Of a stretch of 64,000 nucleotides of DNA, positions 44,014 through 55,740 are shown piece by piece; the stretch's first letter is position 1, and each line of letters starts with the position of its first letter. The stretch covers positions 240,717 to 304,716 of the forward strand of contig NC_081830.1 in assembly GCF_030867095.1 (NCBI RefSeq). Direction: 5' to 3'. The stretch comes from Alligator mississippiensis (taxonomy: Eukaryota). The notes below the pieces were generated by a model. That model searched no databases. It was not told the DNA's origin and was given only the letters and a program-made list of their open reading frames with translations. Both the position numbers and the translations under genes were made by a program.

Positions 44014-46311
44014 GTAGGGCCCGCGCTGCGCCCCTGCCCCACTCACTGCCCCCCACCGCCCCTCCCCCCGTCCTCCTGTCCCGCTCACTGCCCCCTGCCC
44101 CACCGCCCCTGCCCCGCCACCTGCTGACTGCCCCCGTCCTCCTGCCCCCACCCTCCTGCCCTGCCACCTGCTGACTGCTCCCCCATCCTGCCCCGCTGAC
44201 TGCCCCCTGCCCCCCACCCTCCTGCCCCACTGCCTGCTGACTGCCCTCCTGCCCCACTGACTGCCCCCTGCCCCGTCTTCCTGCCCCACTGACTACCCCC
44301 TGCCCCACCGCCCCTGCCCCTGCCCTCCTGCCTTGCTGACTGCCCCCCGCCCTGCTGACTGCCCCCCCTACCCCCTGCCCCTGCCCTCCTGCCCTGCTGA
44401 CTGCCCTGCCATTTGCTGACTGCCCCCCCCCCAGCTCTGGTGCTCCTGCCCCACGGCCCCCCCCAGTGCCCCCTGCTGAGAACTGCCATGTCCGGGATCC
44501 ATTGCTTCCGGTGGTCTGGCTGGAGCAGCGGGGGGCGGAGGGGCAGGTCCGGGCAGGGGAGCCCGTCGAGAGGCCCGGAGGAGGAAGCGCCAGGCACGGC
44601 CCCGCGCGGCGAGCAGAGCCCTGCTCTGCGTCAGGCCGCCCAGAGCCTGGCGCGGGCCCTGCTGGCCAGCCGCCCTCTCAGCCCCGGCCCCCGCAGGCTG
44701 GATCCTGATCGATCGGAACGGGCGCCACTTCGGCACGATCCTGAACTACCTGAGGGACGGGGCGGTGCCGCTGCCTGCGTCGCAGCGGGAGCTGGAGGAG
44801 GTGCTGTGCGAGGCGCGCTACTACCTCATCCAGGGGCTGGTGGAGGACTGCCAGCTGGCCCTGCAGGTAACCTGGGGGCGGGGGCAGGGCTCCGGCCGCA
44901 CACGGTGGGGGGGGCAGCGGTGACTGGGTGTCTCCGCGTAGAACAAGAGCGAGGCCTACGACCCCCTGTGCCTGATCCCCATGGTGACGTCCCCCAAGGA
45001 GGAGCAGCAGATCATCTCCAGCTGCTCCAAGGTGAGCGATGGGGAAGGGGCAGGACGGGGACCCTCTCCTCGCGCTGTCCTGCCCAGCTCCAACCCCCCA
45101 CCCTGTGGCTCCTCTCCCCACAGCCGGTGGTGAAATTGCTGCATAACCGGAGCAACAACAAGTATTCGTACACCAGGTAAGGATGCCCTGGCCCCCAGCC
45201 TCTGCCCTGCCCTGCCCTGCCCTGCCCTGCCCCGCTCACGGTGCCACTGCCTCCCCCCCTCCCCCAACAGCAACTCGGACGACAACCTGCTGAAGAACAT
45301 CGAGCTGTTTGACAAGCTGGCGCTGCGCTTCAACGGGCGCGTGCTCTTCGTCAAGGACGTGCTGGGCGACGAGATCTGCTGCTGGTCCTTCTACGGGCAG
45401 GGCCGCAAGATCGCCGAGGTCTGCTGTACCTCCATCGTCTATGCCACCGAAAAGAAGCAGACCAAGGTGTGGGACACCCCCCCACCCCGCAGTCGGCTTG
45501 GTACATCCTGCTAGGCAAGGCTGACAGGGAGCTGCACTGCACCCCGCCTGTGGCCACTTGCTACATTTCCCCCCCCCCCCCCAATATGGGAATTTGGTGC
45601 AACCCAGTAGGAGTGGGAAACTCCCCCCCACACCTTGGCACTTGCTATGTCCCAAATCTCTTCATCAAGCTCTACACTGGTTTGGTATGTCTCAACCCCC
45701 CATTTTATGAGCACTTGAGATGGTCCAAACCTCCCCCCCCTTATATTGGCATTTGGTATTTCCCAGAGCGCTGCCTAGCCCTAGAGCCTTGTTTAGACTT
45801 TCCCCCCTTCCCATTGATATTTGGTATGTTCCAGATCTCCCCGTTATGTTGGTATGGTACATTCCATCCCCCCTGCACTGACAGTGGTACGGTCTGAGCC
45901 CCTGTGTCCCCACCTCTTGTTGATATTTGGTACATCACACTGTGCTGAGTGAAGCCATTTTTGGTTTCTCCTATTGGTCTTTGGTACAGTCCAGAGCGAG
46001 CTGGATTGCACAGCTCCCCCATCCCAAGGGGAGTTGGTATGCCCTGGCCCCTCTGACCCCTGACCCCCGCGCAGGTGGAGTTCCCCGAGGCGCGGATCTT
46101 CGAGGAAACCCTGAACATCCTGATCTACGAGACGCCGCGGGTGCCCGACAAGGCGCTGCTGGAGGCCACGGGCGGCGCGGCCGGTGGGGGCGGGGCGGCC
46201 CGTGCCGAGGACGAGGACGGGCGCGAGCACCGGGTGCGGCGTATCCACGTGCGGCGCCACATCACTCACGACGAGCGTTCCCACGGCCACCAGGCTGTCT
46301 TCAAGGACTGA
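43761..46311 (+). CDS. KCTD13: BTB/POZ domain-containing adapter KCTD13 (BACURD1), CDS span; six coding exons.
   Basis: Near-identical to the human protein: [174 protein letters not shown] and [19 protein letters not shown]. Confidence 0.96.
44697..44866 (+). CDS. KCTD13: KCTD13 exon 2 ([57 protein letters not shown]).
   Basis: Acceptor cccgcag; donor cag|gtaacc. Confidence 0.93.
44942..45031 (+). CDS. KCTD13: KCTD13 exon 3 ([30 protein letters not shown]).
   Basis: Acceptor ccgcgtag; donor aag|gtgagc. Confidence 0.93.
45124..45176 (+). CDS. KCTD13: KCTD13 exon 4 ([18 protein letters not shown]).
   Basis: Acceptor cccacag; donor cag|gtaagg. Confidence 0.93.
45271..45466 (+). CDS. KCTD13: KCTD13 exon 5.
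   Basis: Acceptor cccaacag; donor aag|gtgtgg. Confidence 0.93.
46075..46311 (+). CDS. KCTD13: KCTD13 exon 6 (VEFPEARIF...HGHQAVFKD*).
   Basis: Acceptor cgcgcag; stop TGA at 46309-46311. Confidence 0.93.
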
Positions 46312-46992
46312 CCTCCTGGCTGCCCCCACCCTTGGTAACCTGCTCCTGACCCTTGACCTCTGCTGCCCACTGCCCCGGTGTCCGGCCGGGAGTGGGCCGG
46401 GGGGTTCTGTGTCCGCTAATGAGCTCACGGCCCAACGCCCCCCGCACTGCAGGCCAGGCTGGGACGCCCCCTCCCATTTACAGGAGGGGCGTGGGCTGTG
46501 TATGGGGGGGCTCCAAAGCACCCTGCCTCTTACAACATGGTATGTTCTACTTCCTCCCCCCAAAAAACACTATAGTACAGCCGCAGTTGCCCTTCTGTTT
46601 TCCCTGCTCCTTGAAACGGAACATGGTATGTTCCACTTACCCCCCCCAAAAAAACACTATGGTACGGCCCCAGCCACCCCTGTCCCTCACTCCTGGCTGG
46701 GTGGTATAACCCCACTGCCCCCCTTTGGAGTCATGTGGTATGCTCCAGTGTGTCTGCCCTGCCCCCAAACTGGATGGGAAACCCCAAACTCCCCCCCCCC
46801 CTTTCTAAAACAGAGCAGAGGGATCCTAAAATCTGACCCACCCCGCCCCCTGCACTGCCGCTCTCCATTCCCCTCTTTTTTGTATAATTTATTTGTAACA
46901 ATTTTGGGGGTTTTGGTTTTTGCTTTGTCTCACTTCCCTTTTTTTTTTAATTTCCCGTTGGTTTCCAGTTTCATTTTCTATTAAATTATTGG

Positions 46993-46998
46993 AATAAA
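46993..46998 (+). terminator. KCTD13: KCTD13 polyA signal AATAAA.
   Basis: The string ttggaataaagaac, about 680 nt 3' of the stop. A T-rich 3' UTR precedes it. Confidence 0.65.
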
Positions 46999-48689
46999 GA
47001 ACTGTGGGAAAGCCTGGGCTCGGCCCTCCTCCATGACCCCGGGGGGGCCAGTCCTCGTGGGCTCCGATCCTGCCCCTGGTGCTCGGGTGCCAGGCGCGAA
47101 GGGTGAGGGCCCGGCCACGCTGGGGTGCCGCAGGTTCCCACAAAAAGCACGCGGGGGCTGTCGGGTGCTCTGCGGGGTCGCGGGGGCGCAGACTGCATCA
47201 CATCCTCCACCCTGGGAGCAAACCCAGGAGCACCCAGCAGGCTGCACTGCCGAAGTGGCTGCCCTCCATGAAGGCCTGGAGACCGCAGCGGCACCCCTCG
47301 GCAGTACACGAAGACCCAGGCCTCCCCCCCAGGACCTGCGATCCAGCCACCTTGAAGCAACGGCTAGGCCCAAAGCCTGGGCCTGGTGCCCCCAAGGCCT
47401 AGCAGGGGCCAGCGCCTGGTGCTGTGGCGTGGGGCTGTGCCTCCTGCCTAGGGTCGGGCAAAGACAAGCAGCTGCTGAAGACCGGGGGCCCTGCCCCGTG
47501 CCTGCCCATGAGTAGCACTGGGCACAGGCTGGTAACCTGGCCCCAGACGGGGCAGGGGTGCTGCCCCCCCCATAGCACCCCCCAACCAGAGCAGCATGCC
47601 AGGGCTGTGGGGCACCCCCAGATGTCCCCCTGCTGCCCTGGTACCCGCGGAGCCCTGTCAGTCACCAGCCCCTCAGCTCCACCACAGCCTCATGTCTGCC
47701 CACCCTCTCGCCGGGCCCAGGCAGGGCTCAGAGACCTGCCGGCTCCGGGGAGACAGGCCATGGGGCAGCTGGCTCTGGGGGGGCACGAGCGGGGGTAGAA
47801 GCTGCTGACTCATGAATGGTTTTCACGCCTCGGATGCACGGTAATTAGTGCGTCTCCTGCATCTCGGTCGCAGCTTCGTTACCTTTGTGCAGGCTCGTCA
47901 CCCGCTGTCCCCCTCACTGCTGCACGGCATGGCCTGGTCTCTGTGCGCGCCCTGCAGGCCCCCGTGCTCTGCCAAGTCCAGAGCGCACGCTAGCACTGCC
48001 GCAGCCTTCCCAGCACTGCCCCTGGCGCCGAGGCGCAGTGCAGCTTGGCCACGTGCAGCCACGGGCCCAGGACTCGGCCTGTCACAGGTGATGCCATGGC
48101 CTGTCCGTCATGGTGCTGTTCTGTTCTGTGCTGTGCCGGTCTTGGCGTGGTGCCTGGCATGGGACACATCATGGCATGCTATAGCCTGTCCCATCGTGGG
48201 GATTAATCCCAATGGGCTCTGTCTTTGCCCACAGCAGGCAGACAGCCCTCCTCCTGCCCCCCAGCCCCTCCCCTAGCCTGGACAGCCCGGCCTCATGGGC
48301 TCGCCTCAAAGCTCAGCTCAGCATCCTCCCGTTGCCCTCCCTGCCTCCATCCCCGCCCTGGGGGCCATACCCCCAGTGTGGGGGCATAAAGGGGATTCAC
48401 GGGGCTGCATTTGGTTCACGGTTCCCTGCTCAATAACCTGAACATGCGGTCAGCCTTCCTGCTGGTGCTGCATCCGTCGTGGTGGTGCCCAGCCATTTCC
48501 CACCTGGCGCACACCCACGTTTTAACGTTCTCTGGCGGTGCCCCCGTGCCGGCAATCCCCGCGCCCGCACTTCTGAGCTCCTCGTGGCTCGTTGCCGTGG
48601 CAGTACTGCTCACCTCTGGCACACCACAGCCACACCTCGGTTGGGAAGCCCGGCGCTGGGCTGCCTCGGCCCCATTTCCCAGGTTACGA

Positions 48690-49260
48690 TGACATTACAT
48701 GATATGGTAGAGAATAATCCTCTCGCGGTCTCTTATCTTCTATTGGACTTGGATCTCTCCGCAACTGTTGTGTCCCAACGAACTGTATTAGAGCAATCAC
48801 AGCCGGTCACACTACACTTGGCATGTTAGAGTGTATCGTATGATATTATGTACTGATTGCAATAAGTACTGGTTGTGCTGTATATTGATTGTATTAGATA
48901 TCGACTGCGCTGCAACTGCTAGGTTCTAACGCGTGACATGGACCAACTGTTGCATCTTGTCCATCCTGTTCTTCTTCTACCGTGCCGTCTTCTATATCGA
49001 CTCTATTGCATCGATCGTGTTCTGCAAGTCGTACTGCTCCATCAACCACATGCATGTCATTGCCTTACATGATGTTGCATTGTATTGTACTGAACTGTGT
49101 TGTATCCATTATACTATATTGTCTTATATTACATTGATCAATATGAACTGATATTTGATCATTGTAATGGATACAATGCAATACAATGTATTGTACAGTA
49201 TAATATATCTATTATACTGTTCTACAATACATTGGATTGCGTTGTTTCTAGTCTAGCATG
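48690..49260. other. AT-rich island (about 30% GC) containing nested hairpins, in the KCTD13-SEZ6L2 intergenic region.
   Basis: For example, ccaatgtattgtacagtataata / tattatactgttctacaatacattgg forms an about 23-bp stem at 49178-49232. A second hairpin is tgatcaatatgaactgatatttgatca at 49135-49165. Confidence 0.6.
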
Positions 49261-49799
49261 TGGCTGTCCATCAGCGAGGTCACCGGTTGGGCGCGGAGCC
49301 CTGGCCGTCAAGCAGTGGCGCACGGCAAAGGCAGGGAGGAAGCGCGTGGCCAGAAAAACAAGGATCTCTCGCATCCGGTCCTCCACCCCCCTCTGCTTCG
49401 TCTCTCTTCTTTCTCCTCTCCCCCACTTTCTCTTTTCTCCGTCCCTTTATCTTTCCCTCTTCTCCCCCAACCCCCTCCTGCTGGATGTGGTCATTTTCGC
49501 TTGCGAAGGCTGAACAACAGCATGGCATGGTACACGTTACACTACACTGTAGTGTACCACTGGCTGCCATTAGAGGACAGGAGGTTACACGATGGGAGCA
49601 GGTCAGCGGTGGGTGCTGGGGCGTGGGCCTGGCGCTACCGAGTCAGGGTCAGGCACCGTCTCTGCTCCACGTGCCCCACAGCCGTCTGTGCATGTCCCCA
49701 TTGCTGACGGGGCTGCCAGGCGAGAGCCACAGGGCGGGTGCGGGGTCATGGGGTGGAGGAAGGTCCCGGCCCAGAGCAGGTAGGACAGGATACCTGAGC

Positions 49800-50285
49800 T
49801 CAGGGGGCTCAGGCAGGGGGGTGCAGGGGGGCAGGGGCGGTGCGCGGGCTTGGGGACTCAGGCAGGCAGGGCGCGGGGCAGCAGGGGCGGTGCGTGGGGC
49901 TCAGGCGGGGTGCAGGGTGGCAGGGGCGGTGCGTGGGCTTGGGGACTCAGGCGGGTGGGGCACAAGGTAGCAGGGGCAGTGTGCAGGGCTCAGGTGGGGT
50001 GTGGGGCAGCAGAGGCAGTGTGTGGGGTGCGAGGCGGCAGGGGCAGTGCGTGGGGTGCAGGGCTCAGGTGGGGTGCGGGGCGGCAGTGGCAGTGTATGGG
50101 GTGCGGGGCTCAGGTGGGGTGCAGGGAAGCAGAGGCAGTGTGCGGGCTGGCAAGGGCAGTGTGCAGGGTGTGGGGCGGCAAGGGCAGTGCGCGGGGTGCG
50201 GGGCTCAGGTGGGGTGTGGGGCGGCAGGGGCAGTGTGCGGGGTGTGGGGCGGCAGGGGCAGTGCGCGGGCCGGCGGGGGGGGAGG
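49800..50285 (+). repeat. G-rich minisatellite of about 12 × 41 bp with unit GCAGGGGCGGTGCGTGGGGCTCAGGCGGGGTGCAGGGTGGCA, ending about 100 bp 5' of the SEZ6L2 ATG.
   Basis: Highly regular tandem copies with G-runs of 3-4 on the plus strand (G-quadruplex-prone). ORFs 49840..51048 and 49901..50737 are translation artefacts of this repeat. Confidence 0.85.
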
Positions 50286-50391
50286 GAGGCCGAAGCCCGC
50301 GTGCGCGGGGCTGAGCCCGCTCCCCCCCCGCATTGCCGCCGCCGTCGCTGCTGCAGGAAAGCGCCAGAAGCCGCGCGGGTCCGGCCCCGCC

Positions 50392-55740
<5,349 letters not shown>

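What the first reader, a model, noticed from the sequence alone, without database searches (positions are those of the whole stretch)
49800..50285. Twelve-copy G-rich 41-bp minisatellite abutting the SEZ6L2 translation start
A very regular array with GGGG/GGG runs every 6-10 nt on the coding strand, ending about 100 bp before the SEZ6L2 ATG. It is likely to form G-quadruplexes and to be length-polymorphic. It could act as a promoter or 5' UTR regulatory element, and it is an obvious source of assembly error.
Basis: seen in the sequence. Interest (0 to 1): 0.55.

Follow-up and report, generated by a model that had tools for sequence, protein, structure and literature searches.

The report
G-rich minisatellite upstream of alligator SEZ6L2
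A real but irregular 0.47-kb guanine-rich tandem repeat lies just upstream of the alligator SEZ6L2 gene; it could fold into G-quadruplexes and it breaks short-read assemblies, but it evolves like neutral DNA and belongs to a well-known class.

Summary
The array is real. There are twelve copies of a conserved core at 49800-50285, 59% G on the + strand, with 46 G-runs and no C-runs, ending 106 nt before an ATG. It has no 41-bp period. Units are 21-50 bp long, periodicity peaks at 28, 46, 74 and 89 bp, and units are about 79% alike.

The downstream gene is a SEZ6L2 orthologue, with KCTD13 upstream. The window is American alligator.

In-silico G-quadruplex potential is very high and confined to the sense strand. 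No test showed selection:
- The 5' half is conserved unit for unit in Chinese alligator at the neutral flank rate.
- Substitutions are mostly transitions, and about half touch a CpG.
- G-runs are not spared.
- The array is CpG-depleted and lies just outside the CpG island that covers exon 1.
- Rhea has unrelated arrays of opposite polarity at the same place.

The Chinese alligator short-read assembly breaks inside the array, although all of its gaps fall in GC-rich DNA.

Best reading: a locally generated, neutrally decaying promoter-shore minisatellite in an archosaur GC-rich region that is orthologous to an avian dot chromosome. The transcription start site, length polymorphism and actual folding remain untested. 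It is a new member of a known kind, of low to moderate interest.

The parts
49800..49983 (+). 5' block of the array: units 1-4 (45, 50, 39, 50 bp), an 89-bp higher-order repeat (50+39), with GGCGGTGCG-type cores that retain CpGs
   Evidence: TRF period 89, 2.2-2.4 copies, 82-84% matches. Unit table. Orthologous unit for unit in A. sinensis.
49984..50265 (+). 3' block of the array: units 5-12 (39, 28, 46, 46, 21, 28, 46, 28 bp). It is built from a 28-bp core (consensus TGGGGTGCGGGGCGGCAGGGGCAGTGCG) with or without an 18-bp GGGGCTCAGGTGGGGTG module, giving 46- and 74-bp periods.
   Evidence: TRF periods 74, 46 and 28. Unit table and consensus. Module matches occur only inside the array. A. sinensis sequence stops at window 50086.
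50266..50285 (+). Degenerate tail of the array with a G8 tract (CGGGCCGGCGGGGGGGGAGG)
50286..50391 (+). 106-nt non-repetitive, CpG-rich leader between the array and the ATG. It has no TATA box and contains a C8 tract. It is probably the core promoter and/or 5' UTR.
   Evidence: Sequence. CpG o/e 0.75-0.98 from about 50200 onward. No TATA-like hexamer.
50392..50443 (+). SEZ6L2 exon 1 coding part ([17 protein letters not shown], a signal-peptide-like segment), followed by a GT donor at 50444
   Evidence: Exon 2 (about 50549-50689, ALPLKEDE...[11 protein letters not shown]) aligns to SEZ6L2 N-termini. Gene identity.
50200..51000 (.). CpG island covering the last array units, the leader and SEZ6L2 exons 1-3 (GC 79-89%, CpG o/e 0.75-1.06). 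The bulk of the array (49800-50199) lies outside it, with o/e 0.40-0.58.
   Evidence: 1-kb profile
43761..46311 (+). KCTD13 coding region, the upstream neighbour. Exons are 43761-44013, 44697-44866, 44942-45031, 45124-45176, 45271-45466 and 46075-46311. A poly(A) signal AATAAA lies at 46993.
   Evidence: The spliced product equals XP_059586374.1 [Alligator ...] exactly. Poly(A) signal.
44046..44429 (-). Second strand-skewed minisatellite, in KCTD13 intron 1. It is G-rich on the minus (template) strand, has a different motif, and is the only other large tandem repeat near the finding.
   Evidence: It lies within window 43592-44672, the stretch matching an A. sinensis N gap.

Best explanation
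This is a compound G-rich minisatellite in the American alligator, on the 5' shore of the SEZ6L2 CpG-island promoter. It lies about 2.8 kb past the KCTD13 poly(A) signal and ends 106 nt before the SEZ6L2 ATG. Inferred origin: local slippage or unequal exchange of a 28-bp G-rich motif, with or without an 18-bp module, later organised into 89-bp and 74-bp higher-order repeats. It predates the split of the two Alligator species and has since decayed at the neutral rate, mainly through transitions, about half of them at CpG sites. Its sense strand can in principle fold into about 5-10 G-quadruplexes whenever it becomes single-stranded. No selected function is detectable. Its demonstrable effect is technical: together with the adjoining 80-89% GC island it defeats short-read sequencing and assembly. 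Shown here: anatomy, gene context, orthology, neutral substitution pattern, CpG depletion and the assembly gap. Inferred: origin by slippage, germline methylation, and a position upstream of the transcription start site.
For: Anatomy. The core motif is confined to the array. Gene context. In A. sinensis the first 287 bp are orthologous unit for unit at about 94% identity, against 92.8-93.5% in the adjacent non-coding flank and 96-97% in exon-bearing segments. Of 19 interspecies substitutions, 17 are transitions and 9 touch a CpG. Five of the 19 fall in G-runs, which occupy 37% of the sequence (binomial P = 0.24), so G-tracts are not protected. CpG o/e is 0.40-0.58 in the array against 0.75-1.06 from about 50200 onward. 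In Rhea pennata the SEZ6L2 upstream region carries unrelated arrays that are C-rich on the sense strand, and intron 1 carries an unrelated G-rich 81-bp array of about 22 copies. There is no Pfam, Rfam or CTCF-like signal. G4 potential. Assembly gaps occur at this spot in A. sinensis and at the SEZ6L2 5' end in two turtle assemblies. Published context: G4-rich tandem repeats around GC-rich archosaur genes block sequencing (PMC9021737; bioRxiv 10.1101/2025.10.17.683159).
Against: Only one comparator species was available, and only for the 5' 60% of the array. Neutral-rate divergence over 287 bp cannot exclude selection on bulk properties such as G-richness, copy number or nucleosome exclusion, as opposed to selection on individual bases. 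The array is the strongest G4Hunter block on the + strand of the 64-kb window and sits exactly at a promoter, where G4s are generally enriched and often functional. It also carries 7 GGGCGG hexamers, 14 per kb against 5 per kb in the window. The TSS is unknown, so a 5' UTR location is not excluded.
Confidence: 0.6

Rival explanations
1. The array is a functional promoter-proximal element. Sense-strand (non-template) G-quadruplexes and/or tandem GC-box-like sites keep the SEZ6L2 promoter open or recruit Sp/KLF or G4-binding factors, with copy number tuning transcription, as proposed for the human insulin-linked polymorphic region.
For: It lies 106-590 nt upstream of the ATG and abuts the CpG island. 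Mean G4Hunter is 1.55, with 5-10 PQS, all on one strand. It has 7 GGGCGG hexamers and 4 CAGGTG E-boxes, both above window density. It has persisted since the split of the two Alligator species. G4s are enriched and hypomethylated at bird promoters.
Against: Divergence is neutral and G-runs are not spared. CpG depletion suggests germline methylation, unlike a typical active promoter G4. No full Sp1 decamer (KGGGCGGRRY) occurs in the array. Rhea has unrelated arrays of the opposite polarity. G4-prone sequence is commonplace here, covering 28.6% of the window at G4Hunter >= 1.5.
Confidence: 0.2
2. The array is transcribed as part of the SEZ6L2 5' UTR. There its RNA G-quadruplexes, a 72-codon uORF (uATG at 50096) and R-loop formation on the G-rich non-template strand would dampen translation or transcription.
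For: The array is on the sense strand and ends only 106 nt from the ATG. G4-aware RNA folding of array plus leader places about 6 quadruplexes in the MFE structure (-335.5 against -286.6 kcal/mol without G4s). The uATG and its stop at 50312 are present. There is no TATA box to fix a downstream TSS.
Against: The CpG island, where TSSs of such promoters usually lie, starts only at the last array units. In birds, 5' UTR G4s are preferentially on the template strand rather than the coding strand. A 0.6-kb, 76% GC, G4-laden leader with a uORF would be strongly inhibitory for a broadly expressed neuronal gene. No transcript evidence was available.
Confidence: 0.1
3. The array, or its copy number, is an assembly artefact (collapse or expansion) of the source genome.
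For: G4-rich tandem repeats are known trouble spots for long reads as well as short reads. Only one assembly of this species could be examined.
Against: An independent assembly of a different species reproduces the first 287 bp unit for unit. Units are diverged enough (79% identity, variable lengths) to be placed unambiguously by long reads. The N gap in A. sinensis (1473 N) is similar in size to the matching 1339 bp of the window.
Confidence: 0.05
4. The array is coding. It would be an N-terminal Gly/Arg/Ala-rich extension of SEZ6L2, because the SEZ6L2 reading frame is open from 49840 through the array.
For: ORF 49840-51048 is in frame with the ATG at 50392.
Against: There is no in-frame ATG upstream of 50392. 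No Pfam family matches. The A. sinensis orthologue carries an 8-bp, frame-breaking indel. An open frame is expected in A/T-poor sequence. SEZ6L2 orthologues begin with the signal peptide.
Confidence: 0.02

Closest known systems
Human insulin-linked polymorphic region (INS VNTR/ILPR), a G-rich minisatellite upstream of INS. This comparison rests on established knowledge and was not tested here.
   Same: Both are G-rich tandem repeats a few hundred bp upstream of a gene start, with all G-tracts on one strand, multiple potential G-quadruplexes, and a position compatible with promoter modulation.
   Different: The ILPR has a short (14-15 bp), fairly homogeneous unit, is highly length-polymorphic, and shows allele-dependent expression. 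The alligator array has heterogeneous 21-50 bp units at about 79% identity. It shows no evidence of polymorphism, expression effect or constraint, and its sequence is unrelated.
G4-forming human minisatellites CEB1, CEB25 and MS1 (established knowledge)
   Same: All are GC-rich, strand-asymmetric minisatellites with units of tens of bp, whose G-strand matches G4 consensus motifs.
   Different: Those arrays are hypervariable, with many near-identical units, and their instability has been shown experimentally to depend on G4s. This array has 12 diverged units, and its 5' half has been stable since the split of the two Alligator species.
'Sequence stuttering' minisatellites and G4-rich tandem repeats of avian dot chromosomes (PMC12954441, PMC9021737, bioRxiv 10.1101/2025.10.17.683159)
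   Same: The chromosomal neighbourhood is orthologous: KCTD13 and SEZ6L2 are listed under paralogon 2B, chicken chr38. GC content is extreme, and locally generated imperfect tandem repeats sit beside conserved exons. G4 motifs are abundant, short-read assemblies have gaps, and Rhea SEZ6L2 shows the full avian pattern.
   Different: Tandem repeats cover only 5.4% of the alligator window, against most non-coding sequence on avian dot chromosomes. No exon-derived copies were found. The 5' half is stable between species rather than hypervariable. The authors report that they did not find stuttering outside birds, apart from gerbils.
Immunoglobulin class-switch regions (established knowledge)
   Same: Both are tandem G-rich repeats with units of tens of bp and G on the non-template strand near a promoter, a geometry that favours R-loops and G4s when transcribed.
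   Different: Switch regions are 1-12 kb long, lie downstream of a defined promoter, and are transcribed. This array is under 0.5 kb and is probably upstream of the TSS.

Membership tests
Minisatellite (tandem repeat with 10-100 bp units) | Head-to-tail repeated units of about 10-100 bp spanning at least 100 bp, beyond chance | tested here: met
   TRF scores 265-318 at periods 89, 74 and 46. Twelve cores are present. Ten motif matches against 0.02 expected.
Minisatellite (VNTR sense) | Allelic variation in copy number within the species | not testable with these tools
   Only one assembly of the species was available. Between species there is one 8-bp indel in 287 bp. The 3' half is unassembled in A. 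sinensis.
   Self-similarity at lag 41 is 0.387, below the shuffle background, with peaks at 74, 46, 89 and 28. There is no TRF row with period 41.
G-quadruplex-forming sequence | At least four G3+ tracts with short loops on one strand, and a high G4Hunter score | tested here: met
   46 G3+ runs. Five PQS with loops of 1-7 nt, or 10 with loops of 1-12 nt. Mean G4Hunter is 1.55, and 98% of the array scores at least 1.5. The G4-aware MFE structure has about 6 quadruplexes.
G-quadruplex-forming sequence | Demonstrated folding (CD, melting, polymerase stop in K+ versus Li+; BG4 binding in chromatin) | not testable with these tools
   Requires wet-lab assays.
Promoter G4 or regulatory minisatellite (ILPR-like) | Located upstream of, and close to, a mapped TSS | tested here: inconclusive
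   It ends 106 nt before the ATG and abuts the CpG island, but no TSS data were available.
Promoter G4 or regulatory minisatellite (ILPR-like) | Evolutionary constraint on G-tracts, or an expression effect of the repeat | tested here: not met
   Constraint was tested. Divergence is about 6-7%, the same as the flanks. Five of 19 substitutions fall in G-runs against 37% occupancy, P = 0.24. There is no counterpart in Rhea. An expression effect could not be tested.
CpG island | GC above 50-55% and CpG observed/expected above 0.6 over at least 200 bp | tested here: not met
   In the array at 49800-50199 the CpG o/e is 0.40-0.58 despite 72-80% GC. The criterion is met only from about 50200 onward, with o/e 0.75-1.06.
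5' UTR RNA G-quadruplex element | The G-rich strand is present in the mature mRNA leader | not testable with these tools
   No transcript data. The sense-strand orientation is compatible.
Avian-type 'sequence stuttering' | Dense local imperfect repeats filling the non-coding DNA between conserved exons | tested here: not met
   TRF coverage of the window is 5.4%, with only three arrays of at least 150 bp.
Avian-type 'sequence stuttering' | Copies of exon-border sequence within the repeats | tested here: not met
   Unit motifs occur only inside the array.
Avian-type 'sequence stuttering' | Extreme intraspecific length variation | not testable with these tools
   Population long-read data would be needed.
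CTCF-site cluster or insulator | Matches to the CTCF core CCASYAGRKGGCRSY | tested here: not met
   There are no matches in the array at up to 1 mismatch, and 6 in the whole window against 4.8 expected.

The most novel reading that the evidence does not exclude
The SEZ6L2-upstream array and the KCTD13 intron-1 array would be a mild crocodilian form of the 'sequence stuttering' instability. That instability has so far been reported only for avian dot chromosomes, and gerbil GC-rich genes. If so, the tendency of this GC-rich, G4-prone paralogon (2B, chicken chr38) to spawn strand-skewed minisatellites next to first exons would have arisen in the archosaur ancestor, before bird dot chromosomes became extreme.
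Probability: 0.15. Interest if true: 0.5.

Novelty: new member of a known kind. Interest (0 to 1): 0.2.

Why it matters
On its own the array matters little, because G-rich, G4-prone minisatellites beside GC-rich promoters are common in amniotes. Its practical importance is for annotation. The array and the adjoining 80-89% GC island explain why the SEZ6L2 5' end and KCTD13 exon 1 are missing from short-read crocodilian and turtle assemblies, and why those assemblies produce chimeric or truncated gene models. If the array proved polymorphic or bound by G4 or Sp factors, it would give a tractable non-mammalian example of repeat-length control of a neuronal gene from the region that is 16p11.2 in human. 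If the two arrays are early 'stuttering', crocodilians would become the outgroup for studying how avian dot chromosomes acquired their repeat load.

Tried and rejected
(1) More crocodilian comparators. Only A. sinensis yielded a locus.

(2) Turtle promoters. Chelonia mydas (L003) and Chelonoidis abingdonii (L004) both have N gaps over the SEZ6L2 5' end.

(3) Human locus look-up. The protein is not on record.

(4) Gull and kagu contigs (L005, L006). L005 carries only the 3' part of the gene, and L006 could not be read separately because the script stopped; the output was swamped by low-complexity hits.

(5) Alignment of the alligator and Rhea leaders. No meaningful conservation beyond a C-run.

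(6) Metagenome scan for the unique 5' flank, in the hope of host reads from other individuals. No hits.

(7) A hidden gene between KCTD13 and the array, such as ASPHD1, or a protein encoded by the array. No Pfam hits.

(8) A structured RNA. No Rfam hits.

(9) A CTCF-site cluster. No matches in the array.

(10) A dispersed repeat family. The motif is confined to the array.

(11) Literature on the SEZ6L2 promoter or G4s. Nothing specific was found.

Full report
**What is in the sequence**

The stretch 49800-50285 is a genuine tandem array. TRF places it at 49803-50269, with best rows at periods 89 (2.2-2.4 copies, 82-84% matches), 74 (4.0 copies, 74%), 46 (4.9 copies, 79%) and 28. No row has period 41.

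Anchoring on the conserved core GCRGTGYR gives exactly twelve units. Core-to-core spacings are 50, 39, 50, 39, 28, 46, 46, 21, 28, 46, 28, and unit lengths are 21-50 bp.

The 5' third is an 89-bp higher-order repeat (50+39). The rest is built from a 28-bp core, consensus TGGGGTGCGGGGCGGCAGGGGCAGTGCG, with or without an 18-bp GGGGCTCAGGTGGGGTG module, which gives the 46- and 74-bp periods. Mean pairwise unit identity is 0.79.

Self-similarity peaks at lags 74, 46, 89 and 28 (0.49-0.52). At lag 41 it is 0.387, below the shuffle background. '41 bp' is only the arithmetic mean, and 'very regular' is wrong.

The motif is far beyond chance: 10 matches against 0.02 expected. It is confined to this array within the window.

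**Composition and G4 potential**

The + strand of the array is 59% G. It has 46 runs of at least 3 G and no runs of at least 3 C, and the gaps between runs are 1-17 nt.

- Mean G4Hunter score is 1.55 over 486 bp, the highest + strand block in the window.
- 98% of the array passes the 1.5 threshold.
- There are 5 non-overlapping canonical PQS with loops of 1-7 nt, or 10 with loops of 1-12 nt.
- G4-aware RNAfold places about 6 quadruplexes in the sense-strand MFE structure (-246.1 against -185.6 kcal/mol without G4s) and none on the complement.

The background is also unusual. The window is 67.7% GC, and 28.6% of it passes G4Hunter >= 1.5 on one strand or the other. G4-prone DNA is thus the local norm, and the array is its densest patch.

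**Gene context and species**

The first in-frame ATG after the array is at 50392. It opens a signal-peptide-like exon ([17 protein letters not shown]) with a GT donor at 50444.

The downstream exons aligned along the whole length of a human SEZ6L2 sequence that I recalled from memory, through to the terminal DTREYEVSI. A database search with the spliced middle part then returned proteins named SEZ6L2. The best were tuatara at 61% and turtles at 62%, with CUB and Sushi domains.

Upstream on the same strand lies KCTD13. My hand-spliced product is identical to XP_059586374.1 from Alligator, on a 90-Mb contig. The Chinese alligator locus differs by 4-7% at the DNA level, so the window is American alligator. 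This is consistent with the long-read assembly cited in PMC12954441.

The KCTD13 stop codon ends at 46311 and its AATAAA is at 46993, so the array is not part of that transcript. Intergenic ORFs, and the open frame that runs through the array, have no Pfam match. There is no Rfam match.

**Comparative evidence**

The A. sinensis scaffold (L001) aligns through the 5' flank and the first 287 bp of the array. The match is unit for unit at about 94% identity with one 8-bp indel. The scaffold then enters a 1473-N gap that removes the rest of the array and SEZ6L2 exons 1-3.

Divergence inside the array equals that of the adjacent non-coding flank (92.8-93.5% identity) and exceeds that of exon-bearing segments (96-97%). 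Of 19 substitutions, 17 are transitions and 9 touch a CpG. Five fall in G-runs, which occupy 37% of the sequence (binomial P = 0.24). G-tracts are therefore not protected.

CpG observed/expected is 0.40-0.58 across 49800-50199. It rises to 0.75-1.06 from about 50200 through exons 1-3. Most of the array thus lies just outside the CpG island and looks like germline-methylated DNA. This last point is an inference.

In Rhea pennata the region upstream of the SEZ6L2 ATG carries unrelated 20-30 bp repeats that are C-rich on the sense strand. Intron 1 carries an unrelated G-rich 81-bp array of about 22 copies. Neither the sequence nor the polarity is conserved across archosaurs.

The 8-bp indel also rules out a coding role for the open frame.

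**Assembly-error claim**

This claim is supported, with a qualification. The A. sinensis gap begins inside the array. The stretch that contains the KCTD13 intron-1 array also matches an A. sinensis gap, and two turtle assemblies have gaps over the SEZ6L2 5' end. However, every gap in L001 corresponds to a 70-81% GC segment of the window. Extreme GC content and the repeat therefore act together. One consequence is the chimeric A. sinensis KCTD13-SEZ6L2 gene model P0117.

**Interpretation**

The best-supported reading is a locally generated, neutrally decaying minisatellite on the shore of the SEZ6L2 CpG-island promoter. It has high latent G4 potential on the sense strand and no detectable selected function (confidence 0.6).

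Two rivals remain open:
- A real promoter-proximal G4 or GC-box element (0.2). The array contains 7 GGGCGG hexamers and 4 CAGGTG E-boxes but no full Sp1 decamer.
- A 5' UTR element with RNA G4s and a 72-codon uORF starting at the uATG at 50096 (0.1).

The TSS is unknown, and it decides between these readings. The CpG-island boundary favours a TSS at or beyond the array's 3' end. So does the observation that bird 5' UTR G4s are mostly on the template strand.

Length polymorphism could not be tested. The low unit identity and the interspecies stability of the 5' half argue against hypervariability there, while the more homogeneous 3' units (10-12) remain open. A CTCF-cluster reading is rejected.

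**Relation to what is known**

G4-rich tandem repeats around GC-rich archosaur genes are already described:
- Chicken 'hidden' genes, whose novel sequences are 79% tandem repeat and 37% G4 motif (PMC9021737).
- 'Sequence stuttering' on dot chromosomes (PMC12954441).

The supplement of PMC12954441 lists KCTD13 and SEZ6L2 under paralogon 2B, chicken chr38, a dot chromosome. It lists SEZ6L2 as missing in Galliformes and Anseriformes. The alligator locus is therefore the orthologue of a dot-chromosome region. It is much less repeat-laden, with TRF coverage of 5.4% and only three arrays of at least 150 bp, and it shows no exon-derived copies.

By analogy the array resembles the human INS VNTR and the G4-forming minisatellites CEB1 and CEB25. 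This comparison rests on established knowledge and was not tested here. The array lacks their homogeneity and their demonstrated polymorphism.

**Verdict**

The array is a new member of a known kind, with interest 0.2. The most novel reading not excluded is that it and the KCTD13 intron-1 array represent a crocodilian precursor of avian sequence stuttering (probability about 0.15).

Noticed in passing
window 44046-44429 (G4Hunter block 44020-44505): A second strand-skewed minisatellite lies in KCTD13 intron 1 and starts about 30 bp after the exon-1 donor. It is C-rich on the + (sense) strand, with mean G4Hunter -1.60 and motifs such as GGGGCAGTCAGCAGG and GGCAGGAGGGCAGGGG on the minus strand. 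It lies within the window stretch that matches an A. sinensis assembly gap. Its polarity relative to transcription is opposite to that of the SEZ6L2 array.
   Followed up: partly
L001 10001-19238 (A. sinensis KE697395.1); protein P0117: The annotated A. sinensis protein is a chimera of KCTD13 (lacking exon 1) and a SEZ6L2 Sushi exon that appears twice. Window 52089-52287 aligns to two places in L001, on either side of a 10-N gap. This looks like an annotation and assembly artefact caused by the GC-rich gaps.
   Followed up: partly
window 46312-49799: No recognisable gene lies between KCTD13 and SEZ6L2 (no Pfam hits for the ORFs). From memory, ASPHD1 sits between these two genes in human. In the A. 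sinensis annotation SEZ6L2 is followed by a PAXIP1_C (PAGR1-like) gene and INO80E, so the local gene order differs from the human 16p11.2 order as I recall it.
   Followed up: partly
whole window: The window is 67.7% GC, and 28.6% of it passes G4Hunter >= 1.5 on one strand or the other (about 100 canonical PQS per strand in 64 kb). This is an exceptionally G4-dense neighbourhood for a non-avian reptile.
   Followed up: partly
L002 7286-9830 and 10209-11995 (Rhea pennata JAQOLV010000134.1): SEZ6L2 in Rhea is flanked by kilobase-scale arrays. Repeats of 20-30 bp, C-rich on the sense strand (CCCAGTATGGCCCC...), lie upstream of the ATG. An 81-bp G-rich array of 22 copies at 94% matches fills intron 1. 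This is the avian dot-chromosome pattern at the orthologous gene.
   Followed up: partly
L003 8495-31987; L004 6020-9827: Both turtle assemblies examined (Chelonia mydas GCA_000344595.1 and Chelonoidis abingdonii GCA_003597395.2) have N gaps exactly where SEZ6L2 exon 1 and its promoter should be. This suggests a systematic dropout of this gene's 5' end across sauropsid assemblies.
   Followed up: partly
window 48880-49300: An AT-rich island with TATTGTA- and ATTG-rich low-complexity sequence lies about 0.5 kb upstream of the array, in otherwise 60-80% GC DNA. It may be a transposon remnant. Another AT-rich kilobase pair lies at 28-30 kb (GC 35-40%).
   Followed up: no
window 50450-50521: SEZ6L2 intron 1 begins with its own short tandem repeats (CGGGGC about 10.7 copies; GGGCCGGGGGTGC about 5.2 copies). 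They share the decamer GGGGTGCGGG with the upstream array. The match is too short to show common origin.
   Followed up: no
window 50096-50312: The only ATG inside the array (50096) opens a 72-codon out-of-frame ORF that ends 80 nt before the SEZ6L2 ATG. It would act as a uORF only if the array is transcribed.
   Followed up: partly
literature: PMC12954441, supplementary tables: KCTD13 appears in a table whose columns ask whether genes are also missing in Crocodylia or in all sauropsids. It is marked as not missing in Crocodylia, and the table appears to list genes missing from birds, though I did not see its title. SEZ6L2 is listed as missing in Galliformes and Anseriformes. Both are assigned to paralogon 2B, chicken chr38. 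The intact alligator copies and the partial Rhea SEZ6L2 seen here are consistent with those tables.
   Followed up: partly
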